From IMG/VR virus record IMGVR_UViG_3300045988_148900, positions 32,001 to 96,000 of that record: DNA of 64,000 nt, one strand, 5' to 3'. Position 1 is the first letter of the stretch; every line of letters begins with the position of its first letter. Made by a program: the position numbers and the translations under genes. Positions 19,851 to 60,392 of this stretch are shown here, piece by piece. Under the pieces are notes generated by a model, which saw only the letters and a list, made by a program, of their open reading frames with translations, searched no databases and was not told the DNA's origin. Source of the stretch: a virus.

Positions 19851-20174
19851 CTACTTCGTGTCTAAAGGTTGCAAGGCTTCTAAAATAGTATCACAACCAA
19901 AAAATACAACCCTTGAATTGGACCTCAAGTGCTTCGAATGACGACACAAGGGATAAACATACAAAAAATCCCTAAACTCAATCCACAAATAGTTGCTAAC
20001 ACTAAAACGATATATCTTCGAAGTACTCGCGTCCTGAAAAGTCATTGCAAAGCACACAATTTGAGGACAGAATGCCACAACACGCACTCTAATATCCAAC
20101 TTCCAACCCGAACGCAAATAAAAACCCTTAAGCAAATACTCCGAATCTATCTTGAGATCTGAATAAGATACCAT
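19851..20174 (-). CDS. hypothetical protein, 'SYSDLKID' N-terminal paralog family
   Basis: 107 aa. It begins MVSYSDLKIDSEYLLKGFYLRSGWKLDIRVRVVAFCP... and aligns along its whole length with the 20268-20588 reading frame. Confidence 0.55.
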   Translation of the reverse strand: MVSYSDLKIDSEYLLKGFYLRSGWKLDIRVRVVAFCPQIVCFAMTFQDASTSKIYRFSVSNYLWIEFRDFLYVYPLCRHSKHLRSNSRVVFFGCDTILEALQPLDTK

Positions 20175-20267
20175 AAGATTGTTATTTTACACTCTCTATG
20201 CTCGTCAAACCGACACACTGACGACAATACATCAGATAAATCATCATACACCTGTATAAACAAGACG

Positions 20268-20588
20268 TTAGTTTGAAATCGGGATTAGCATATCCAAAAA
20301 ATCATCACAAAGAAAAGGTACAACCCTCGAATTAGACTTCAATCGTTTCGAACAACGAGATAAAGGATGATTATGAAGATAATCTTCAAAAGAAATAACA
20401 TTATACAGAGTCTTACTAAAAAGACGTCTCCGGCCCGTAGAATCCTCGTAAAAAGTTATCCCCAAACAAACGCTTTCTGGACAGAACGCAACCACGCGTA
20501 CCCTAACATCCAAACGCTCGCTATCTCCAAGATAAAAATCTCAAATCAAATAATATGAATCTATCTTGAGATCAGAATAAGATGCCAT
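20268..20588 (-). pseudogene. paralog of 19851-20174 interrupted by an in-frame TGA (20541-20543)
   Basis: ATG 20588 gives MASYSDLKIDSYYLI*DFYLGDSERLDVRVRVVAFCPESV.... The stop aligns with Lys in the paralog (..SEYLLKGFYL..). The track ORF restarts at a TTG codon at 20513. Confidence 0.55.
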
Positions 20589-20590
20589 AG

Positions 20591-29702: not shown

Positions 29703-29761
29703 CGACCCGCCAGCTAAGAAGATACAGGTCTAAAGCCTTCTTGCCGTACCACAGAATATTT

Positions 29762-29851
29762 AGGTGATTATATACAATTTTACACTGCACATATTGGCGA
29801 TTCTACGACATCGTAACCTCCGTCTCCACGCCCGTCAAACCGTCCCACCGA
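29762..29851 (-). ncRNA. candidate omega-RNA 3' scaffold / right-end block of element A
   Basis: By my count, 83 of 90 nt are identical to 40246-40335 of element B. The next roughly 90 nt of coding sequence are visibly less conserved. In IS200/IS605 systems the omega-RNA overlaps the tnpB 3' end. Confidence 0.3.
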
Positions 29852-30958
29852 CGGCGATAATTTTGCTAATCCTTCTTTTAGAATATTGGTCGCGGCGGTA
29901 AGATCCCGATCATGGATCGTACCACATTGCGGACACGCCCATGTCCTATCACTTAACGTAAAGCCATCGTTCTTGTAACCGCAACATCCGCAGGTCTTAC
30001 TACTCGGAAAGAAACGGTCGATCTTCAAAACTGTCCTACCAAGCCAACGGGCCTTGTAATCCAAGACACGAACGAACTCAAACCAACAAATGTTTTGGAT
30101 GGATTCAGCTAAACTGTGATTACCCATCATACCTTTCACATTTAAGTCCTCGATAAAGACGGCTTGGTTCTCACCCAATATCGAGTTAACCGTATGATGG
30201 ATAAGATTATTAATCAAATTGCGTTTCTTAGCATACAGCTTATTAATTTTTAGCCTTATCTCCGAACGGCGGCGACTGCCTTTTTGTCGTCGTGATTCTA
30301 TCTTCTGCAACCGAGAGATACGACGGTCTATGACATCCGCGAAACGCGGATTAGGTATCTTCCGACCATCGGAGGTGACTATAAAGTCTTTTAAGCCTAA
30401 ATCAAGACCGACGCACTTGGACTGACTCGTGATGGGCTCCGGCTTTGGTTCTTGAACACCTGTCTCCACAAGACAACTCGCCCAAAAGCGTCCGCAACCG
30501 TCACAACTAACCGTAACATTCCTAAGCTGACCCTTAAACCGACGATCCTGCTTATACCTAACCAAACCGATCTTCGACAGTTTGACGTGACGACTATCCT
30601 GATCGACGCTGCAATGAGTGGAAGGAAATCTGCAAGATAGCTTACTCCAATGCTTCGTCTTGTGCTTCGGAAATCCTTGCTTCGTCTTGAAAAACATCTG
30701 GTAGGCACTACTCATGTCGCGTACTGACTGAACCAAACAGACAGCGGGTACATCATACAACCACCCGTACTCGGACTTCAAGCCCGTCATCAAATTGATA
30801 CATTCGAACTCCGATAACGAGGTCTTATCTGTCTCGTAAGCTTTGATCTTAGCATCCAACGTAGCATTATAAACATATCGACAACAACCGAACGTCTGAC
30901 GCAACAAAACCTGTTGTGTCTTATTGGGATAAAGTCGATATTTATAAGTGCGCTTCAT
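29780..30958 (-). CDS. tnpB: TnpB RNA-guided endonuclease (OrfB_IS605 + RuvC + Zn-ribbon)
   Basis: 392 aa. It begins MKRTYKYRLYPNKTQQ and carries the RuvC triad contexts VGLDLGLKDF, VFIEDLNVKGM and IHDRDLTAATNI, plus the zinc ribbon CGCCGY...CPQCG. Confidence 0.9.
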   Translation of the reverse strand: MKRTYKYRLYPNKTQQVLLRQTFGCCRYVYNATLDAKIKAYETDKTSLSEFECINLMTGLKSEYGWLYDVPAVCLVQSVRDMSSAYQMFFKTKQGFPKHKTKHWSKLSCRFPSTHCSVDQDSRHVKLSKIGLVRYKQDRRFKGQLRNVTVSCDGCGRFWASCLVETGVQEPKPEPITSQSKCVGLDLGLKDFIVTSDGRKIPNPRFADVIDRRISRLQKIESRRQKGSRRRSEIRLKINKLYAKKRNLINNLIHHTVNSILGENQAVFIEDLNVKGMMGNHSLAESIQNICWFEFVRVLDYKARWLGRTVLKIDRFFPSSKTCGCCGYKNDGFTLSDRTWACPQCGTIHDRDLTAATNILKEGLAKLSPSVGRFDGRGDGGYDVVESPICAV

Positions 30959-30962
30959 GCTA

Positions 30963-30970
30963 CAAATATA
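30963..30970 (-). promoter_or_regulatory. host-type -7 box TATATTTG upstream of tnpB (A)
   Basis: Minus strand reads TATATTTG-TAGC-ATG, which implies a leaderless or near-leaderless mRNA. Confidence 0.4.
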
Positions 30971-31076
30971 GTTATTTATTTACGTCTATGCAAGATGGTA
31001 GTGTAAAATTATATGTAGTCGCCATCTGAAAAACGAAGAGCAACACTCATAAGACAATCCTTTAATATCAACCTAC

Positions 31077-31493: not shown

Positions 31494-32711
31494 TTACTTT
31501 AACGCGCGGCGGAAATAATAACCCTTCGTAGGCGAATCTCTATCAAGACCATACGCTACTGTAGACAAACCAATACCCATAACTCGAGACGCCTCTGATA
31601 TAGATGGAAAAGACCCATATAAAGAACCATCTAAAGTAAAAACGTCAACGTCAGTAGACCAACCATAATGATCCTTCTTAATTGTATGTTTAAGCCTATT
31701 CATACTCGTGGCAGCCCGAGCAACACGATTCGATATATCCTCTGCAGACGCACCCGGAAAAGCCCAAAGATAACCTCCAGCTGACGCACGATCGCATGTA
31801 CCCTCCGCACAAAACATAATAGACGCATTATCGGCTCCAGAAGCAATAGAAGCCTGATGATACGATGGATAAGAAGCAACAAAAACACCGTCTAAAGTAT
31901 ACTGATTGACGGCAACCTTCGTGCGATGCAAACGCTTAGGCTCCCGCAAGACTCTAACAGGAATGTCAATGTCATCTCGACGCCACTGATAACCACCAGC
32001 TGACTGTAACTCTCCTCTTGCAGCCCGAGCTATAAGAGACGAATCAAAATTAATCAAACAACCTGCCTCTGCCATGCTAATATAGCTGCGAATAAATTTA
32101 CCCGACATGGAATACTGCGAAACGGAAATCGGCTGATTACTCTCTATTACTGAAATCTCCTCCGCAGACAACACACGCGCCGACTCGCCTGCCCAACGCC
32201 ACTGAAAACCATTATGTGCAGGACGAAGCCCTCTACAACACCGACAAATACTCGAATGATTGGAACCAGTCTGTGACGCGGCCTCCACCGCACTCTCGAA
32301 CTGACCAACCAAACGACCAGCATAGTCATACTGCCAAACAGCCTTGGCCCTAAGTAACCCTAATGCATGGCGATCCTCAGCGGACGCCGCGGCCCACGTA
32401 AAACCAATGCCTCCAGAAACTACATTGTAACCAAACGACGGATTAGTAGCCTTATAGAAATCAATAAAGTAAACCTCCTCATGGGCCAAAGAATCCAACA
32501 AACTGACCACATCATCCATCTCAAAACGACGTAGAACTCGATACTCCCAAAGCTCAGGAGAATACTTCTTACGAGCAGCAGCTACCCTAAACCCAGAATA
32601 AGAACCCGAACGAAACCAACATGCGCGACGTCTACGCTCATCGATAGTTATTCCAATATACACCTTCTCCTCCGGAGAAATGTACATATATACAACACCT
32701 CTGTACTGCAT
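31494..32711 (-). CDS. free-standing GIY-YIG homing endonuclease with repeated NUMOD/IENR-like modules
   Basis: 405 aa from ATG 32711. VVYMYISPEEKVYIGIT (GIY..YIG), HEEVYFI (Glu) and GYNVVSGG match the catalytic domain. C-terminal repeats end in GFQWRW, GYQWRR, GYLWAF and GYYFRR. Confidence 0.85.
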   Translation of the reverse strand: MQYRGVVYMYISPEEKVYIGITIDERRRRACWFRSGSYSGFRVAAARKKYSPELWEYRVLRRFEMDDVVSLLDSLAHEEVYFIDFYKATNPSFGYNVVSGGIGFTWAAASAEDRHALGLLRAKAVWQYDYAGRLVGQFESAVEAASQTGSNHSSICRCCRGLRPAHNGFQWRWAGESARVLSAEEISVIESNQPISVSQYSMSGKFIRSYISMAEAGCLINFDSSLIARAARGELQSAGGYQWRRDDIDIPVRVLREPKRLHRTKVAVNQYTLDGVFVASYPSYHQASIASGADNASIMFCAEGTCDRASAGGYLWAFPGASAEDISNRVARAATSMNRLKHTIKKDHYGWSTDVDVFTLDGSLYGSFPSISEASRVMGIGLSTVAYGLDRDSPTKGYYFRRALK

Positions 32712-32763
32712 AAAAAAAATCTGCAACAACAGCACAGCGTCCATTCCATACTGAAGTTGCAGA
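32712..32763 (-). terminator. hairpin + U8 abutting the homing-endonuclease start codon
   Basis: Minus strand reads TCTGCAAC-(28 nt)-GTTGCAGA followed by TTTTTTTT and then ATG 32711. Confidence 0.45.
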
Positions 32764-39439: not shown

Positions 39440-40000
39440 CTAAATATTATTGCAAAAATCTACCATCATATCCAAAACAGCCTCCGTAGCCTCCAACTCC
39501 GACTGTCGCTTATGAAGACCACGCTGGCAAAACACAAGCAACGACGGCACTAAACGCCGCGGAACATCAATACGTGAGAAACCAGCATCGCCAGAAAGAT
39601 AAGGAAGCAAATCGGAAAGCTCCGACGGTACAATCTCCGGAACCTTACCCTTCGACGGCGAAACAGACTCAAGCCTATCTTCACGGTTCAATCTACGTAA
39701 CAAATTGCCAGCCTCATTGCGAATCATCGTATAAAGATAATTATACGGTGACATCGACTTATCGAAACGATCGTGACGCTCCATAATAGTCATCAAAGCC
39801 TGACTACGCAAATCGTCAAAGTCCTGATAATACTTGCCAAAGTGAGTATTCAAAACAATACTGATAACCTTGTGAATCTCGTCAAGCTCCCGAGACGTAA
39901 CCTCAGAAACAGGATGAAGATAAAACTGAAGAAGTATCTTCTTATCTATCGCAACACGAGCGGTAGAAGAACTGACAAGTATCTCTGACGAATCACACAT
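39440..40000 (-). CDS. late-transcription sigma factor, T4 gp55-like (sigma-70 region 2 only)
   Basis: 186 aa. RFDKSMSPYNYLYTMIRNEAGNLLRRLNRE parallels my recollection of T4 gp55 ([32 protein letters not shown]) and generic sigma region 2. Confidence 0.55.
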   Translation of the reverse strand: MCDSSEILVSSSTARVAIDKKILLQFYLHPVSEVTSRELDEIHKVISIVLNTHFGKYYQDFDDLRSQALMTIMERHDRFDKSMSPYNYLYTMIRNEAGNLLRRLNREDRLESVSPSKGKVPEIVPSELSDLLPYLSGDAGFSRIDVPRRLVPSLLVFCQRGLHKRQSELEATEAVLDMMVDFCNNI

Positions 40001-40245
40001 GGCTGTAGTAACTTTTTAAGTAATCCAAAACTCGAAAACGTGTGGTCCTATCAGCTAAAGGCCACCAATAAACACACTTCAACTCCTCTTTATGAACATG
40101 AGGCTTACATCGGTAATCTACAGTAGTCCACGTGCGGGGCTTGAATGAACTCGTAAGATGCGGACGTGTAAACTCCTCTATGACATCGGACGTCTTTAAC
40201 AACGACGGCAACCAAAAAGGCCGTGTATCATCAAAAGATAAACAC
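39993..40245 (-). pseudogene. 3' fragment (83 codons) of a phage gene split by TnpB element B
   Basis: The frame continues from 41509-41675 once 40246-41508 (1263 = 3 x 421 nt) is removed. The track ORF 39993-40319 borrows an ATG and 25 codons from inside the element. Confidence 0.55.
40240..40245. repeat. putative 6-bp target-site duplication AAACAC (left copy)
   Basis: aaacac lies immediately outside the left TIR of element B. The same hexamer is at 41509-41514, outside the right TIR. Confidence 0.5.
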
Positions 40246-40335
40246 AGGTGATTATATACAATTCTACACTGCACATATTGGCGTTTCATCGACTTCGTAA
40301 CCTCCGTCTCCACGCCCATCGAACCGTCCCACCGA
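40246..40335 (-). ncRNA. candidate omega-RNA 3' scaffold / right-end block of element B
   Basis: 83 of 90 nt are identical to 29762-29851, although the two TnpB proteins differ at about 12% of residues. Confidence 0.3.
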
Positions 40336-41442
40336 CGGCAAAAACATCGCTAAACCCTCTCTCAAAATGTTGCTGGCGGCATTTAAGTCTCGGTCGTGGA
40401 CCGTACCACATTGTGGACACGCCCAAGTCCTATTGCCTAACGTAAGACCGTCGTTCTTGTAGCCGCAACACCCACAGGTCTTGCTACTCGGGAAGAAACG
40501 GTCGATCTTTAAAACCGTCTTACCCAACCAACGCGCCTTATATTCCAAGACACGAACGAACTCAAACCAACATACACTCTGGATGGATTTAGCTAATCTA
40601 TGGTTACCCATCATGCCCTTAACATTCAAGTCCTCGATAAAAATGGCTTGGTTCTCACCTAAAATACCGTTGACTGCATGATGGATAAAGTTATGAATTA
40701 AATTACGTTTCTTAGCATATAGTTTATTGATTTTTAATCTTATCTCCGCACGGCGACGACTGCCTTTCTGTCGTCTTGCTTCTATTTTCTGCAAGCGGGA
40801 TATCCGACGATCGATGACGTCCGCGAAACGCGGATTAGGTATCTTGCGACCGTCGGAGGTAACCACAAAGTCCTTCAAACCCAAGTCCAGCCCGACACAC
40901 TTGGACTGGCTTGTGATAGGCGTGGGTTTAAGCTCAGGAACACCCGTCTCGACAAGGCAACTCACCCAAAAGAGTCCGCAGCCGTCGCAACTTACCGTGA
41001 CGTTACGTAACTGACCCGCAAACCGACGATCCTGCTTATAGCGTACTAAACCAATCTTCGATAGTTTGATGTGACTACTTTCCTGATCGACACCACAATG
41101 GGTGGACGGAAAACGACATGATAGCTTGCTCCGATGCTTCGACTTAAACCTTGGAAAACCCTGATGCGTCCGGAAAAACATCCGGTAAGCACTATACATA
41201 TCTCGAACCGACTGAACCAAACAAACCGCAGGAACGTCATACAACCATGCGTACTCGGACTTCAGGCCCGTCATCAAGTTAATACATTCGAACTCCGACA
41301 AGGACGTCTTATCTGTCTTGTAAGCCTTAATCTTAATATCAAGCGTAGCATTATAAACAAACCGACAACAACCGAACGTCTGACGCAACATTGCCTGCTG
41401 CGTCTTGTTCGGATAAAGCCGATATTTATAAGCACGCTTCAT
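40264..41442 (-). CDS. tnpB: TnpB RNA-guided endonuclease (paralog of 29780-30958)
   Basis: 392 aa, the same length as copy A. The RuvC contexts VGLDLGLKDF, IFIEDLNVKGM and VHDRDLNAASNI are intact, as is the Zn ribbon CGCCGY...CPQCG. Confidence 0.9.
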   Translation of the reverse strand: MKRAYKYRLYPNKTQQAMLRQTFGCCRFVYNATLDIKIKAYKTDKTSLSEFECINLMTGLKSEYAWLYDVPAVCLVQSVRDMYSAYRMFFRTHQGFPRFKSKHRSKLSCRFPSTHCGVDQESSHIKLSKIGLVRYKQDRRFAGQLRNVTVSCDGCGLFWVSCLVETGVPELKPTPITSQSKCVGLDLGLKDFVVTSDGRKIPNPRFADVIDRRISRLQKIEARRQKGSRRRAEIRLKINKLYAKKRNLIHNFIHHAVNGILGENQAIFIEDLNVKGMMGNHRLAKSIQSVCWFEFVRVLEYKARWLGKTVLKIDRFFPSSKTCGCCGYKNDGLTLGNRTWACPQCGTVHDRDLNAASNILREGLAMFLPSVGRFDGRGDGGYEVDETPICAV

Positions 41443-41446
41443 ATCA

Positions 41447-41454
41447 CAAAGATA
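41447..41454 (-). promoter_or_regulatory. host-type -7 box TATCTTTG upstream of tnpB (B)
   Basis: Minus strand reads TATCTTTG-TGAT-ATG. Confidence 0.4.
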
Positions 41455-41508
41455 GTTATTTATTTACATCTATGCAAGACGGTAGTGTAAAATTGTATGT
41501 AATCACCT

Positions 41509-41675
41509 AAACACAAACCAATACGCTGATGCGTAGTGTAATAATGCTCCGCGCGACATATCCAACGACATATAATCCTCCGCCGCCAACTACCAACACC
41601 ACTCAGAATACTCCAAACTATCCTCTTCATCTCACCTATGACAACCTTAACTTTTGACTGTATAAATCCCTCCAA
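41509..41675 (-). pseudogene. 5' fragment (~55 codons) of the phage gene split by TnpB element B
   Basis: The frame opens at TTG 41675 (ATG at 41630) and runs straight into the element at 41508. It is in frame with 39993-40245 after excision. Confidence 0.5.
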
Positions 41676-41701: not shown

Positions 41702-42724
41702 CTACCTATTTCCAGACCGCGTGCTCACAGTACGCTCTATTAACGACCTAAGCAAAACTTCAACACCTACCTCCGACCCCAAAGCCTGCTGAGCCAAAGG
41801 AGAAAAGAAGAACCCAAACAGAGTCTTACCCAAACCTGCCTTCTGAAGCCGAAACTCAACAGAACCCTCATCAGTAGTAGCGTAAATATTACGCAACAAC
41901 AAACCAACGGACATCCGAACATCTATAGTCGGATACAACAGCAACTCCGAAAGAAGAGACGACGGATCTGTACCCCCAGACTTCGAAAAGCAAGCAACAA
42001 TGAAATCACGGAACTTGAAGTAAGAACTATCCAAAGCACGCGGACCCGCAAGCTCATAGAACTGAAGAAGCTGAAGAGCATTACGCATATGACCCTCCGA
42101 CTTCATAGCCAAAATGTGAAGCTCGTCCGCAGACAACCGAGTACCACGACTCGCAGCGATCTTAGCAACATGAGCCTCAACCAACGGAAGAGGAATAGTA
42201 CTAATGTCGATATTCACACACCGAGACTTCAAAGTAGGCGAAATATCCTCCGTACCACAAAACATGAAAATAGTATTAGGAACACCCTCCTCAACCGTCT
42301 TCAAAAGAGCATCACTACTACTACGAGAAATGGCCTGAACCTCGTCCAAGACCACAACACGACGCCCTTCCGGCACTACCATAAGCTGCTCCTTAAGACG
42401 TCTAATCCCCTCAATATTGCCCACAACCGTACCATCAAGCTCCCAGTAAAGACTCGAGTTGGACGCAGAAGCCTCCTGACACCCAGCACACGCATTACAA
42501 ACGTCGTCCTTGTGCTTAAACTCCGTACAATTCATAGCTCTGCCAAAAATACGAGCTATGCTTGACTTCCCTGAACCGAAGCTTCCCTTCAAAAACAAGG
42601 CCCGGGCTGCAATCCCGTCAGCATGGGCTATACGCTTCAGAGTCGTAACAGCCAAATCCTGACCAACCATCTCGCCAAAGGTCTTCGGCCTATACAAATT
42701 AGCTAAATTCTGATCCTGCGCCAT
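41702..42724 (-). CDS. clamp-loader AAA+ ATPase, DnaX (gamma/tau)-like
   Basis: It has Walker A GSFGSGKSS, the zinc module CNACAGC, Walker B VVVLDEVQ, sensor-1 FMFCGTE and the SRC motif (TLKSRCVNI). Confidence 0.7.
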   Translation of the reverse strand: MAQDQNLANLYRPKTFGEMVGQDLAVTTLKRIAHADGIAARALFLKGSFGSGKSSIARIFGRAMNCTEFKHKDDVCNACAGCQEASASNSSLYWELDGTVVGNIEGIRRLKEQLMVVPEGRRVVVLDEVQAISRSSSDALLKTVEEGVPNTIFMFCGTEDISPTLKSRCVNIDISTIPLPLVEAHVAKIAASRGTRLSADELHILAMKSEGHMRNALQLLQFYELAGPRALDSSYFKFRDFIVACFSKSGGTDPSSLLSELLLYPTIDVRMSVGLLLRNIYATTDEGSVEFRLQKAGLGKTLFGFFFSPLAQQALGSEVGVEVLLRSLIERTVSTRSGNR

Positions 42725-58796: not shown

Positions 58797-58816
58797 CCCA
58801 CGGCTAAAGCCGCGGG
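58797..58816. repeat. IS605 right-end subterminal hairpin
   Basis: cccacggc-taaa-gccgcggg, with one mismatch, overlaps the tnpB stop codon. Confidence 0.6.
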
Positions 58817-59934
58817 ATTCTTGACTCAGACATGGCCGCCACCGAGGTGGGCTTACTACCACTAATCAACGCGTCCATGCCCGAACGCCGAATGTTTAAC
58901 GCTGCGTTGAGATCACGATCATGATGCGTTCCGCACTGCGGACAAAGCCATGAACGGTCAACCAACCGAAGCTCTTTATTAACGTACCCGCATCCACTGC
59001 ACAGCTTGCTACTCGCAAACCACTTATCGACATGCACAACGTTCGTGTTGTACTTAGTAGCTACGAACTCCAAGCGCGACACGAATGATGCGTGGCTGAG
59101 ATCCGAAACCTTACGGCCCCATAAGCGACGCATACCATCAAGGATCAACGTCTCCAAGCAGATCGTAGAATAACACTGACAAAGATCATGCGCTAAGCGC
59201 CACTGATAATCGTCACGATGGTTGCTGATCCCACGATAGAGCCTGCTGAGTTCAAGACGCCGACGGCGGTGGTTATTTGAGCCTTTGACGGATTGGCTCA
59301 ACCGCCGATGCGCCTTACGGATATCACGAAGCGTCTGCTTAAAGAATTGAGGGTTCTCGTAACTGCGCCCGTCGGATAACGTCAAATACGTCTTCAAGCC
59401 AAAGTCAATGCCTACAACCGCACCATCATGTGTCGTGTTGCTGGATTCTACCTTAGCGTCGGTTACGACGTACAACCAAAAGTCGCCGCACGGAGCACGC
59501 TTAACGCGAACCGTCTTTATCGCACCATCAAAATTACGGGATTTATGAAATTTATAAGTCTTCTTAAGTCTGTTGATTGTGAAGCAATTGCCGTCTATCT
59601 TATACCCATAATGCAGCTTATAGGCAAAGGATTGAAAATCCGCGGCACATCGGAACTTAGGCGGCCGCTTGGCAAGCTTCTTGAAGAAACGTTGGTACGC
59701 AGCAGCAAGTCGCTGCAACACCTCAATGCTATTGTGTGAGTACAATAGATGCCGCTTGATGCGCTTTGTAAAATGCTTCTGCATGTCAACCGTTGAAACG
59801 TACTTGCCATACATACGGTAGTATCTACGTTGAAGCGCAAGTGCGTGGTTCCATACAAACGCACACTCCCGAAGCATCCGGTCCAACCATACGGTCCGAT
59901 GTGTCTTGTAGAGTTTGTATTTGTATGTCAACAT
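58804..59934 (-). CDS. tnpB: TnpB RNA-guided endonuclease (IS605 OrfB)
   Basis: 376 aa. It begins MLTYKYKLYKT and carries VGIDFGLKTY, ICLETLIL and HHDRDLNAALNI, plus the Zn ribbon CSGCGY...CPQCG. Confidence 0.9.
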   Translation of the reverse strand: MLTYKYKLYKTHRTVWLDRMLRECAFVWNHALALQRRYYRMYGKYVSTVDMQKHFTKRIKRHLLYSHNSIEVLQRLAAAYQRFFKKLAKRPPKFRCAADFQSFAYKLHYGYKIDGNCFTINRLKKTYKFHKSRNFDGAIKTVRVKRAPCGDFWLYVVTDAKVESSNTTHDGAVVGIDFGLKTYLTLSDGRSYENPQFFKQTLRDIRKAHRRLSQSVKGSNNHRRRRLELSRLYRGISNHRDDYQWRLAHDLCQCYSTICLETLILDGMRRLWGRKVSDLSHASFVSRLEFVATKYNTNVVHVDKWFASSKLCSGCGYVNKELRLVDRSWLCPQCGTHHDRDLNAALNIRRSGMDALISGSKPTSVAAMSESRIPRL

Positions 59935-59973
59935 TACTGTACTCTTTATGCCACAAATATAAGAATAAAATAC

Positions 59974-59981
59974 TATCTTTG
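59974..59981 (+). promoter_or_regulatory. host-type -7 box TATCTTTG upstream of tnpA
   Basis: Plus-strand tatctttg lies 12 nt upstream of ATG 59994. Confidence 0.45.
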
Positions 59982-59993
59982 CAAATAAAAACT

Positions 59994-60392
59994 ATGCGTA
60001 CACGTTGGCAGACGAATAAAGGCTCCGTCTATAATGTAGCCTATCATATCATCTGGTGCCCCAAGTACCGGAGGAAAGTTCTTACAGGAGATATTGCCGA
60101 GCGCTTCAAGGCTTTGCTCTATGAACAAGCCGCCAAGTTCGGATGGGTTATCGAGTCGCTGGAGGTCATGCCTGATCATGTACATCTATCCATTAAGGCT
60201 AATCCTATTGATCCGGTTGCGCGGATTGTGGCACAGCTTAAGGGCTACACGTCACACATGCTGCGGCTTGAATTTCCGTCGCTTCAGACGCGCATGCCGA
60301 CCCTCTGGACGCGATCCTATTACGTCGAGACGATAGGACACATTTCAGAGGATACGATACGTCGATATATTGAGGATCAGAAGAAAAAGTAG
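59994..60392 (+). CDS. tnpA: IS200/IS605 Y1 (HUH) transposase TnpA
   Basis: 132 aa from ATG 59994. It has YHIIWCPKYRR, the HUH motif PDHVHLSI and the catalytic-Tyr context WTRSYYVETIG. Confidence 0.9.
   Translation: MRTRWQTNKGSVYNVAYHIIWCPKYRRKVLTGDIAERFKALLYEQAAKFGWVIESLEVMPDHVHLSIKANPIDPVARIVAQLKGYTSHMLRLEFPSLQTRMPTLWTRSYYVETIGHISEDTIRRYIEDQKKK

What the first reader, a model, noticed from the sequence alone, without database searches (positions are those of the whole stretch)
29762..31024. A second, diverged but intact copy of the TIR-bounded TnpB element, with a hyper-conserved 3' block that could be the omega-RNA
Seen in sequence:
- Elements A (29762-31024) and B (40246-41508) are collinear, and both are 1263 bp.
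- Both encode 392-aa TnpB proteins differing at roughly 12% of residues.
- Both keep the RuvC D/E/D contexts and the zinc ribbon, so both appear to be under purifying selection.
- The last 90 nt at the tnpB 3' end are 83/90 identical by my count, while the adjacent coding sequence is visibly more diverged. This suggests an RNA- or DNA-level constraint.
- Both copies carry a TAnnTTTG box 4 nt from the ATG, which implies leaderless, host-RNAP-driven expression rather than the phage box.

If the IS605 rule holds (guide = first ~20 nt beyond the right end), the guides would be AAATATTCTGTGGTACGGCA for A and GTGTTTATCTTTTGATGATA for B. Three TnpB genes within 31 kb of one phage is a high density. 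It raises the question of whether the phage uses them, for example for homing or competition with related phages, or whether they are purely parasitic.
Basis: partly seen in the sequence, partly recalled or inferred. Interest (0 to 1): 0.7.

Follow-up and report, generated by a model that had tools for sequence, protein, structure and literature searches.

The report
Phage TnpB guide-RNA element on IS1595 ends
This is an intact copy of a small mobile element that encodes an RNA-guided DNA cutter (TnpB) and its guide-RNA scaffold. It is unusual because it sits in a gut phage and uses the inverted-repeat ends of a different transposon family (IS1595) rather than the usual IS605 ends.

Summary
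Elements A (29762-31024) and B (40246-41508) are collinear 1263-bp units, 82.7% identical. Each has an intact 392-aa TnpB.

The conserved 3' block is real and is an RNA:
- Synonymous divergence falls about 8-fold in the last 26 codons (dS 0.13 against 1.13; dN/dS about 0.8 against 0.07).
- Four helices covary on the tnpB-sense strand only.
- A model built without the terminal repeat finds the same RNA in non-coding DNA just after the stop codon of distant tnpB genes.

The ends are not IS605-like. A roughly 24-bp terminal inverted repeat (TIR), AGGTGATTAYATAC..., is shared with about 330-bp miniature elements and with 2.4-4.2-kb units that encode an IS1595-family DDE transposase. All of these make 6-bp target-site duplications (TSDs).

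Three sister phages have B's site empty, with a single GTGTTT.

A looks like an older insertion. Its left repeat is degraded, it has no TSD, no empty site was found, and its ortholog in a sister phage is frameshifted.

Verdict: A and B are solo TnpB/omegaRNA elements that are probably moved in trans by an IS1595 transposase. They plausibly home between co-infecting phages. This is a new variant of a known kind.

The parts
29762..31024 (-). Element A: a solo TnpB/omegaRNA element, 1263 bp
   Evidence: It aligns without gaps to element B, and the homology ends at these coordinates. Its ortholog with the same flanks is L006/L212.
31000..31024 (-). Left-end TIR arm of A, degraded (TGGCGACTACATATAATTTTACACT; family consensus AGGTGATTAYATACAATTTTACAC)
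   Evidence: Inverted repeat I1, 24 nt and 83% complementary.
30963..30970 (-). TATATTTG: a Bacteroidota-type -7 promoter box (TAnnTTTG), 4 nt before the ATG. A CTTGCA -33-like element lies at 30989-30994.
   Evidence: The position -12 to -5 is conserved in all 10 clade-1 copies, including copies whose left ends are unrelated. Promoter function is inferred, not shown.
29780..30958 (-). tnpB ORF, 392 aa, with RuvC D186/E270/D352 and an intact zinc ribbon. Residues 367-392 are read-through of the RNA scaffold.
   Evidence: Pfam finds HTH_OrfB_IS605, OrfB_IS605 and Cas12f1-like_TNB. NCBIfam guided_TnpB scores 309 bits. ISDra2 TnpB (8EXA) matches at E=7e-62 over residues 3-366. The core dN/dS is 0.07.
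29762..29861 (-). omegaRNA scaffold, conserved core: helices P1-P3 (29795-29861), then helix 4 and the 3' tail ...AAUCACCU (29762-29794)
   Evidence: Synonymous diversity collapses from codon ~367. The tail has dS 0.13 against 1.13 in the core. 98% of cells are paired against 25-51% when slid, with 43 compensatory cells. Covariance model R1 hits at 86.5 bits. In the cross-clade alignment, 12 of 16 pairs are compensatory.
29762..29786 (-). Right-end TIR arm of A. It also forms the 3' strand of helix 4 plus the tail.
29742..29761 (-). Predicted guide of A (AAATATTCTGTGGTACGGCA)
   Evidence: The position follows from the right-end boundary. The only matches found are next to occupied copies.
40246..41508 (-). 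Element B: the sister copy, 1263 bp (tnpB 40264-41442; omegaRNA core 40246-40345; TIR arms 40246-40270 and 41484-41508)
   Evidence: R1 hits at 88.5 bits. The minimum-free-energy fold equals the covariation consensus.
41509..41514 (-). Left copy of B's 6-bp target-site duplication (GTGTTT in tnpB orientation)
   Evidence: GTGTTT is single-copy in the empty sites of L209, L210 and L211.
40226..40245 (-). Right TSD copy (40240-45) plus the predicted guide of B (GTGTTTATCTTTTGATGATA)
   Evidence: It matches the empty sites of three sister phages at 18-19 of 20 positions. Each match is preceded by ATTGG(T/C)TT.
58804..60392 (.). A separate, canonical IS605-type element: tnpB 58804-59934 (-) and a divergent Y1 tnpA 59994-60392 (+). 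It is not part of the TIR family.
   Evidence: Pfam Y1_Tnp E=5.6e-39 and NCBIfam transpos_IS200. It has the canonical ...GTCAAG omegaRNA end and no TIR.
20176..20531 (-). Decayed relic of a fourth element of the same family, lying between 58-bp direct repeats
   Evidence: Weak R1 hit at 20187-20231, E=0.004. The sequence was read. The flanking repeat is family D4.

Best explanation
Element A, like its sister B, is a non-autonomous 'solo' TnpB/omegaRNA element carried inside the terminal inverted repeats of an IS1595-family DDE transposon group that lives in phages of gut Bacteroidota.

**Shown**
- tnpB is intact and under strong purifying selection.
- The last ~100 nt form a structured RNA on the tnpB strand. 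The ORF reads through it, and its final helix contains the right-end inverted repeat.
- The same repeats bound ~330-bp miniature elements and 2.4-4.2-kb units that encode an IS1595 transposase.
- Insertions make 6-bp target duplications at T-N6-A-like sites.
- B's site is empty in three sister phages.

**Inferred**
- tnpB is transcribed from its own Bacteroidota-type promoter as a leaderless mRNA.
- TnpB processes the 3' end of that transcript into an omegaRNA ending ...AAUCACCU, followed by ~16-20 nt of flanking phage DNA that serves as the guide.
- The ribonucleoprotein cuts genomes of co-infecting related phages that still have the uninterrupted site. That site is a T-ending, A/T-rich transposon-adjacent motif (TAM), then the 6 bp that becomes the TSD, then the downstream flank.
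- Recombinational repair then copies the element in (homing, or marker exclusion).
- New sites are reached only when an IS1595 transposase acts in trans.
- A itself looks old and probably no longer transposes. Its nuclease and RNA module is still intact.
For: **Protein**
- Pfam, NCBIfam and PDB searches all identify TnpB.
- The catalytic triad and zinc ribbon are conserved.
- The core dN/dS is 0.07.

**RNA**
- The tail has dS 0.13 against 1.13 in the core, and dN/dS of about 0.8.
- The synonymous dip starts at about codon 367.
- RNAalifold finds 4 helices.
- 98.3% of cells are paired against 25-51% when the pairing is slid, with 43 two-sided compensations against 0-4.
- The sense strand folds at -30 kcal/mol against -14 for the antisense strand.
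- A TIR-free covariance model hits non-coding DNA just after the stop codon of 9 or more distant tnpB genes.
- Across clades, 12 of 16 pairs are compensatory.

**Ends**
- The TIR is general across clades.
- The TSD is exactly 6 bp: 7 exact and 4 at 5/6 among 40 copies, against 0-1 exact in 13 shifted controls.
- MITEs (miniature TnpB-less elements) have perfect TSDs at 9 or more sites, and larger units also have perfect TSDs.
- Those larger units encode an IS1595 transposase: PF12762 E=4e-42, and NF033547 at 193 bits against a cutoff of 75.
- The transposase and TIR-type TnpB elements co-reside in the same viral contigs.

**Homing geometry**
- Empty B sites exist in L209, L210 and L211.
- Guide B matches them at 18-19 of 20 positions, with the mismatches far from the TAM end.
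- T at -7 is found in 23 of 27 copies.
- The right end finishes in CCT where the target has WWT (W = A or T).

**Precedent**
- DDE-associated and solo TnpBs with inverted terminal repeats have been reported (PMC10691335).
- TnpB homing has been shown (PMC10055086, PMC10690162).
Against: - There is no expression, processing or cleavage data, and the TAM is only inferred.
- Single-sequence fold z-scores are unremarkable (-1.4 and -1.6).
- No IS1595 transposase lies in this 64-kb window. Co-residence was shown only for sister clades, not for the four contigs that carry clade-1 copies.
- For A: the left TIR is degraded (83%), there is no TSD, no empty site or protospacer was found, and the ortholog in a sister phage has a 4-nt frameshift. 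A may therefore be drifting toward decay.
- ISfinder-type IS1595 elements are recalled (from memory) to make 8-bp TSDs, not 6-bp ones.
Confidence: 0.75

Rival explanations
1. The 3' block is conserved only as DNA. It would be a transposase-binding or TIR region, or an IS605-style single-stranded-DNA right-end hairpin, and not an RNA.
For: The last 24-25 nt are indeed the right-end TIR shared with IS1595 units that have no TnpB. G-T wobble pairs can also form in single-stranded DNA. No RNA data exist.
Against: Conservation and covariation extend about 75 nt beyond the TIR (P1-P3, 29795-29861). A model lacking the TIR finds the same structure downstream of distant, non-TIR tnpB genes. IS1595 units and MITEs lack P1-P3. 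DDE transposases act on double-stranded DNA ends, so single-stranded hairpins are not needed. Many pairs are G-U, so the structure is valid on the tnpB-sense strand only.
Confidence: 0.06
2. A is a domesticated or fixed phage gene. Its RNA-guided nuclease would serve the phage, for example as a weapon against competitors or the host, and the element would no longer be mobile.
For: A has a degraded left TIR and no TSD, yet its ORF, promoter box and RNA are intact. Copies L003-L005 lack the left TIR altogether but keep tnpB and the RNA. There are three to four elements per phage genome, and a GIY-YIG homing endonuclease lies next door.
Against: The ortholog of A in the sister phage is frameshifted and has a triplicated right-end tip, so there is no sign of indispensability. 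Guide A matches nothing except its own flank. The low dN/dS reflects the whole lineage history, not necessarily the time since fixation.
Confidence: 0.12
3. The elements are purely parasitic, and A is functionally dead although its ORF looks intact. Nuclease-guided homing would play no role, and spread would be by IS1595 transposition only.
For: Decay is common in the family: a frameshift in L006, internal deletions such as L104, relics at window 20176-20531 and in L043, and TnpB-less MITEs that transpose perfectly well.
Against: Purifying selection on tnpB is strong (dN/dS 0.07-0.11 across many pairs). The RNA helices are maintained by compensatory changes. This is hard to explain if the nuclease module did nothing for the element's spread. 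B's guide still matches sister-phage empty sites.
Confidence: 0.07

Closest known systems
ISDra2 / IS200-IS605-type TnpB with its omegaRNA (reRNA) (PDB 8EXA, 8BF8, 8H1J)
   Same: The architecture is the same and the proteins align end to end (E=7e-62). The D-E-D RuvC triad and zinc ribbon match. The RNA scaffold overlaps the 3' end of the ORF and runs to the right end, and the guide is taken from the flanking DNA. The best NCBIfam model is IS200_TnpB.
   Different: There is no Y1 TnpA and there are no subterminal hairpin ends. The element has a 24-bp TIR and a 6-bp TSD. The last omegaRNA helix is replaced by one containing the TIR, ending ...AAUCACCU instead of ...GGTTCAA-type ends. The guide begins with the TSD. 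The element is phage-borne.
DDE-transposase-associated and 'solo' TnpB branches (Altae-Tran et al. 2023, PNAS, PMC10691335)
   Same: These have inverted terminal repeats, a TnpB 3' end close to the transposon end (18 nt here), and solo TnpBs flanked by the same ends as transposase-bearing units, which implies mobilisation in trans.
   Different: That paper's text names IS630 (branch DDE-6). An IS1595 partnership is not mentioned in any searchable text. Here the family is essentially restricted to phages of gut Bacteroidota. It comes with MITEs, a documented 6-bp TSD and empty-site/guide pairs.
IS1595-family insertion sequences (ISXO2-like DDE transposase)
   Same: The TIRs are identical to those of units encoding a bona fide IS1595 transposase. 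Other shared features are the TSD, MITE derivatives and passenger genes.
   Different: A and B carry no transposase. Their only gene is tnpB plus its RNA. The TSD is 6 bp, whereas 8 bp is recalled as typical (from memory, not tested).
Fanzor1-only eukaryotic TIR elements (e.g. SPu-1; Bao & Jurka 2013, PMC3627910)
   Same: A TnpB homologue is the sole ORF of a TIR/TSD element that depends on a DDE transposase supplied elsewhere.
   Different: These are eukaryotic, with Tc1/mariner-type TA duplications and a different protein clade.
Free-standing phage homing endonucleases (Seg/Mob; intronless homing) and TnpB homing or gene drive (Meers 2023; PMC11870625)
   Same: The predicted behaviour is the same: cut the allele that lacks the element in a co-resident genome, then get copied in by recombination.
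   Different: Specificity here would come from a guide RNA read from the flank, not from protein-DNA contacts. This is untested.

Membership tests
TnpB (OMEGA RNA-guided nuclease) | Domain architecture: HTH/WED-REC, a split RuvC, and a zinc-finger TNB domain | tested here: met
   Pfam PF12323, PF01385 and PF07282 all score above cutoff. NF040570 scores 309-325 bits against a cutoff of 100.
TnpB (OMEGA RNA-guided nuclease) | Intact RuvC D-E-D catalytic triad | tested here: met
   D186/E270/D352 align with ISDra2 D191/E278/D361. They are invariant in 13 homologues.
TnpB (OMEGA RNA-guided nuclease) | A structured omegaRNA scaffold at or overlapping the 3' end of tnpB and ending at the element boundary | tested here: met
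   Supported by covariation, suppression of synonymous change, and homology to non-coding blocks 3' of distant tnpB genes.
TnpB (OMEGA RNA-guided nuclease) | The RNA is expressed and processed, and it directs TAM-dependent DNA cleavage | not testable with these tools
   This needs RNA-seq, ribonucleoprotein purification and TAM-library assays.
IS200/IS605 transposon | No TIRs and asymmetric subterminal hairpin ends | tested here: not met
   A 24-25-nt TIR is present in A and B and across clades.
IS200/IS605 transposon | Insertion without a target-site duplication | tested here: not met
   B has a 6-bp TSD verified against empty sites, and the family statistics agree.
IS200/IS605 transposon | A Y1 (HUH) TnpA partner | tested here: not met
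   There is none in A or B. A Y1 tnpA exists only in the separate third element at 59994-60392.
IS607 transposon | A serine recombinase partner, no inverted repeats, and a GG core at both ends | tested here: not met
   No resolvase was found in the window. A TIR is present, and the right end finishes in CACCT. The IS607_TnpB model scores only 181 bits against 373 for IS200_TnpB.
IS1595-family transposon group (as a non-autonomous member) | Terminal inverted repeats shared with units that encode an IS1595 transposase | tested here: met
   AGGTGATTATATACAACTTTACAC...GTGTAAAGTTGTATATAATCACCT bounds 20 or more transposase units. B matches at 22 of 24 positions on each arm. The 1349-bp TnpB clade matches at 24 of 24.
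IS1595-family transposon group (as a non-autonomous member) | A target-site duplication of the same length as the autonomous units | tested here: met
   The TSD is 6 bp in TnpB elements, MITEs and transposase units. It is met for B but not for A, which has no TSD.
IS1595-family transposon group (as a non-autonomous member) | A transposase source available in the same genome or cell | tested here: inconclusive
   None lies in the 64-kb window. Co-residence in the same viral contig is shown for sister TnpB clades. The rest of this phage genome was not seen.
IS1595-family transposon group (as a non-autonomous member) | Actual mobilisation by the IS1595 transposase | not testable with these tools
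   This needs a transposition assay.
TldR-type nuclease-dead TnpB regulators | An inactivated RuvC site | tested here: not met
   The catalytic triad is intact.

The most novel reading that the evidence does not exclude
These elements would be an RNA-guided gene drive operating between phages. TnpB uses a guide that begins with the 6-bp target duplication to cut sister phages that carry the empty site. Its TAM (A/T-A/T-T) has co-evolved with the T-N6-A target preference of an unrelated IS1595 transposase. The recurrent insertions and deletions that abut the right end would then be guide-retargeting or self-targeting scars. Examples are L025/L029, L002/L008, L115/L147 and the triplicated ATAATCACCT in L006. 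TnpB would thus have formed a third, independent prokaryotic partnership, with a DDE/TIR transposon, by fusing its omegaRNA 3' helix to the transposon's inverted repeat.
Probability: 0.3. Interest if true: 0.8.

Novelty: new variant of a known kind. Interest (0 to 1): 0.62.

Why it matters
TnpB is usually described as a passenger of IS605 (Y1) or IS607 (serine) transposons, which have neither inverted repeats nor target duplications. Recent reviews still say so.

This window contains a well-populated natural family in which the nuclease and guide-RNA module has been grafted onto IS1595-type DDE transposon ends. The family is found almost only in metagenomic contigs of phage size or phage classification, with Bacteroidota-type promoters. 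Several kinds of evidence are in hand:
- the RNA's last helix is built from the inverted repeat;
- autonomous partners and miniature derivatives exist;
- there is a polymorphic insertion whose predicted guide matches the empty allele in sister phages.

This gives a concrete, testable system for two open questions. One is how TnpB adapts its guide and TAM logic to a transposase that duplicates its target. The other is whether RNA-guided homing operates between co-infecting phages, as protein homing endonucleases do.

The family also supplies a set of compact, probably active TnpB/omegaRNA pairs from Bacteroidota phages.

Tried and rejected
1. **Rfam.** No family matched at gathering thresholds or at E<=10 for A or for the third element.
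2. **GenBank phages.** There was no nucleotide match to the window, to A or to the 1322-bp sister element. The best protein hit was 40% identical.
3. **Empty site or protospacer for A.** Only occupied copies were found.
4. **Y1 TnpA mobilisation.** Rejected, because the variable 6-bp duplications and B's empty site are incompatible with peel-and-paste transposition.
5. **IS607-like mechanism.** Rejected: the element has a TIR, has no GG core, and scores low on the IS607_TnpB model.
6. **TnpB as its own transposase, or RNA-guided insertion.**
   - No copy's guide matches another copy's insertion site.
   - No TAM-like motif sits at the inner edges of the TIRs.
   - The idea became unnecessary once the IS1595 partner was found.
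7. **A host IS with the same TIR.** Only 3 hits were found in representative genomes of 185,579 species. One is a phage-like contig binned as Muribaculaceae, and two are lone matches.
8. **A transposase in the window.** None was found apart from the unrelated Y1 tnpA.
9. **My first hand-typed structure string** was shifted by one column for two helices, and pairing fell to 12-59%. I corrected it. The error served as an accidental negative control.
10. **The '66-bp mini-elements'** turned out to be the hairpin-like left end of the 1322-bp clade. L104 is an in-situ deletion, not an independent MITE.
11. **L043's long spacing** is an inverted right-end relic, not cargo.
Full report
**1. Observation**

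The two 392-aa ORFs exist on the minus strand, at 29780-30958 and 40264-41442. An ungapped comparison shows that homology starts and stops exactly at 31024/29762 and 41508/40246. The units are 1263 bp and 82.7% identical, and their flanks are unrelated.

The proteins differ at 52 of 392 residues (13.3%). The last 90 nt of the CDS are 78/90. With two sequences this is not significant on its own, because other bins reach 89%.

The third TnpB is at 58804-59934 and is 29% identical. The TIR arms are 24 nt and 83% complementary in A, and 25 nt and 92% complementary in B.

**2. The protein**

Pfam finds HTH_OrfB_IS605, OrfB_IS605 and Cas12f1-like_TNB. NCBIfam places A and B with IS200/IS605-type TnpB, at 373-389 bits against 181 for the IS607 type. 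Both pass the guided_TnpB model.

A aligns over residues 3-366 with ISDra2 TnpB (8EXA/8BF8, E=7e-62). D186/E270/D352 correspond to D191/E278/D361, and the zinc ribbon is intact. Nei-Gojobori analysis over codons 1-366 gives dS=1.13 and dN/dS=0.07 for A against B, with similar values for six other pairs.

**3. The 3' block is an RNA**

About 6,800 homologues exist. Close and intermediate relatives sit in 60-160-kb viral contigs, often several per contig.

- In 21 copies from two clades (82-98% and 57-62% amino-acid identity), the last ~100 nt are nearly invariant. This holds even in copies whose left ends are unrelated.
- In the 26-codon tail, dS falls to 0.13 and dN/dS rises to about 0.8.
- Synonymous diversity collapses from 0.35-0.58 to 0.05-0.12 at about codon 367. 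This is the deepest dip in the gene.
- RNAalifold predicts four helices.
- In register, 98.3% of cells pair and 43 cells carry two-sided compensations. When the pairing is slid, 25-51% pair and 0-4 are compensatory.
- Many pairs are G-U, so the structure exists only on the tnpB-sense strand. The sense strand folds at about -30 kcal/mol and the antisense strand at about -14. B's minimum-free-energy fold equals the consensus. Single-sequence z-scores are modest.
- In a distant clade the ORF stops about 27 codons earlier (...NEGLKQLA*), and a homologous block lies in non-coding DNA.
- Covariance model R1, built from P1-P3 only with the TIR excluded, hits that non-coding position in nine or more distant loci at E=1e-6 to 1e-2.
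- On the 48-sequence cross-clade alignment, 12 of 16 pairs show compensatory changes. This alignment was fitted to the model.
- Rfam has no matching family.

**4. The ends are not IS605-like**

The TIR (AGGTGATTAYATACAATTTTACAC, with its inverse at the right end) recurs in the 60% and 44% clades. The right-end arm forms the 3' strand of helix 4 plus the tail ...AAUCACCU.

Pairing termini in all fetched loci revealed exact 6-bp direct repeats flanking many copies. There were 7 exact and 4 at 5/6 among 40 distinct-flank elements, against 0-1 exact in 13 shifted controls. No other repeat length fits.

Three sister phages (L209, L210, L211; flanks 92-97% identical) have B's site uninterrupted. It reads ...GCGTATTGGTTT-GTGTTT-ATCTTTTGAGGATACACGG..., with a single GTGTTT. 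IS200/IS605 and IS607 elements, and TnpB-only elements generally, are described as lacking TIRs and TSDs (PMC13565253, PMC3627910, PMC6188088, PMC10690162).

**5. The partner transposase**

- The window encodes no DDE transposase, integrase or resolvase.
- A bacterial-genome scan for the TIR gave only three hits, one of them a phage-like contig.
- The metagenome scan gave 120 human-gut loci, many on contigs of about 150-160 kb.
- Those loci include a 325-338-bp MITE family with perfect 6-bp TSDs at nine or more sites.
- They also include 3.0-4.2-kb TIR-bounded units, five with perfect TSDs.
- Six of seven such units encode a 303-307-aa IS1595-family transposase together with passenger genes. 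The matches are PF12762 at E=4e-42, a zinc ribbon, and NF033547 at 193 bits against a cutoff of 75.
- The transposase is widespread in viral contigs (237 hits) and co-resides with TIR-type TnpB elements in the same contigs.
- Fourteen more units show the same TIRs and TSDs, and a T-N6-A target bias.
- The window itself has no copy of the transposase.

This fits the report that DDE-associated TnpB branches have inverted terminal repeats, and that solo TnpBs share ends with transposase-bearing units (PMC10691335). An IS1595 link is not mentioned in any searchable text.

**6. Guides and targets**

Guide B (GTGTTTATCTTTTGATGATA) matches the three empty sites at 18-19 of 20 positions. The mismatches are at positions 10 and 16. 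Each match is preceded by ATTGG(T/C)TT.

When copies are oriented by tnpB, position -7 (just 5' of the TSD) is T in 23 of 27 copies and is preceded by A/T-A/T. The right end finishes in CCT, which is a plausible way to tell self from non-self.

Guide A occurs only beside occupied copies. No copy's guide matches another copy's insertion site, so RNA-guided insertion is not supported.

**7. Status of A**

- Its left TIR differs from the consensus at 4 positions.
- It has no TSD.
- Its ortholog (L006/L212) carries a 4-nt frameshift at about codon 72.
- That ortholog also has a triplicated ATAATCACCT at the right-end tip.
- A's own ORF, promoter box and RNA are intact.
- B's nearest sampled relative is only 89% identical, although its flanks are 95-97% identical to phages with the empty site. 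B was therefore acquired from an unsampled donor.

**8. Promoter and host**

TAnnTTTG lies at -12 to -5 from the ATG in all 10 clade-1 copies, and a TAACTTGC variant is found in the 60% clade. Distant non-TIR clades have Shine-Dalgarno sequences instead. This supports Bacteroidota hosts and a leaderless mRNA, which is an inference from established Bacteroides promoter knowledge. The phage is poorly characterised: it has a T4-like portal, an S77 prohead protease, a major capsid protein and few PHROG matches.

**9. Verdict**

Homing between phages is plausible for B and untested. A is an older copy, probably unable to transpose, with an intact nuclease and RNA module.

Noticed in passing
window 58804-60392: A complete, canonical IS605-type element lies here. 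It has a Y1 tnpA (59994-60392, +; Y1_Tnp E=5.6e-39) divergent from the third tnpB (58804-59934, -), and a canonical omegaRNA end ...GCCGTGGGAGTATGTCAAG with no TIR. The phage therefore carries two different kinds of TnpB element.
   Followed up: partly
window 20118-20589: The intergenic segment 20176-20531 is a decayed relic of a fourth TIR-family element. It has a promoter-like TTCTTTGTGATGA and a truncated RNA block with GTGTAAAATAACAAT (weak model hit, E=0.004). It is bracketed by 58-bp direct repeats that duplicate the 5' end of gene 19851-20174.
   Followed up: partly
L025/L029, L002/L008, L115/L147, L199/L200, L142/L175; L006 4198-4221: Copies that share the same left flank differ by insertions, deletions or replacements that directly abut the right end, which is the predicted guide. 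The differences are 8 bp, about 100 bp, about 105 bp and 700-960 bp. A's ortholog also has ATAATCACCT triplicated at the right-end tip. No converse cases on the left side were seen.
   Followed up: partly
L002 and L008 (same site in two phages): The elements at this shared site are only ~79% identical, while the flanks are ~92% identical. This suggests replacement by a different allele, or faster evolution of the element than of the phage backbone.
   Followed up: no
window 31494-32744: A GIY-YIG/NUMOD-type free-standing homing endonuclease gene sits 470 bp upstream of element A. This region also differs among sister phages: only 330 bp of the downstream gene is shared with L213-L215.
   Followed up: no
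window 2876-54467 (repeat families D2/D3): A phage 'box', GGATATATAATTGC (GCAATTATATATCC in gene orientation), is repeated at least 9 times upstream of genes. It shares the ATTATATA core with the element's TIR. Whether this is meaningful is unknown.
   Followed up: no
L243, L277, L299, L319, L326 (IS1595 units): The transposase-bearing units carry passenger genes: lipoprotein-like ORFs, a weak, below-cutoff OMP beta-barrel match, DUF5640 and a P63C-domain protein. In effect they are small cargo transposons inside phage genomes.
   Followed up: no
L142, L175, L199, L200 (1322-bp clade): In this sister clade the left end is a 66-bp near-perfect palindrome, made of the TIR plus an inverted copy (a 22-bp stem). 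A 112-bp palindromic mini-element occurs at three sites (L205, L089, L153).
   Followed up: partly
window, various ORFs: Pfam hits include Tad3 (an inhibitor of the Thoeris defence system), a sigma-70 region-2 protein, ferritin/rubrerythrin, an N6/N4 DNA methylase and a head-fibre protein. Only B's two flanking genes could be assigned from the aggregated scan, and only by guess: 39440-40000 as the sigma-like protein and 41702-42724 as the clamp-loader subunit.
   Followed up: no
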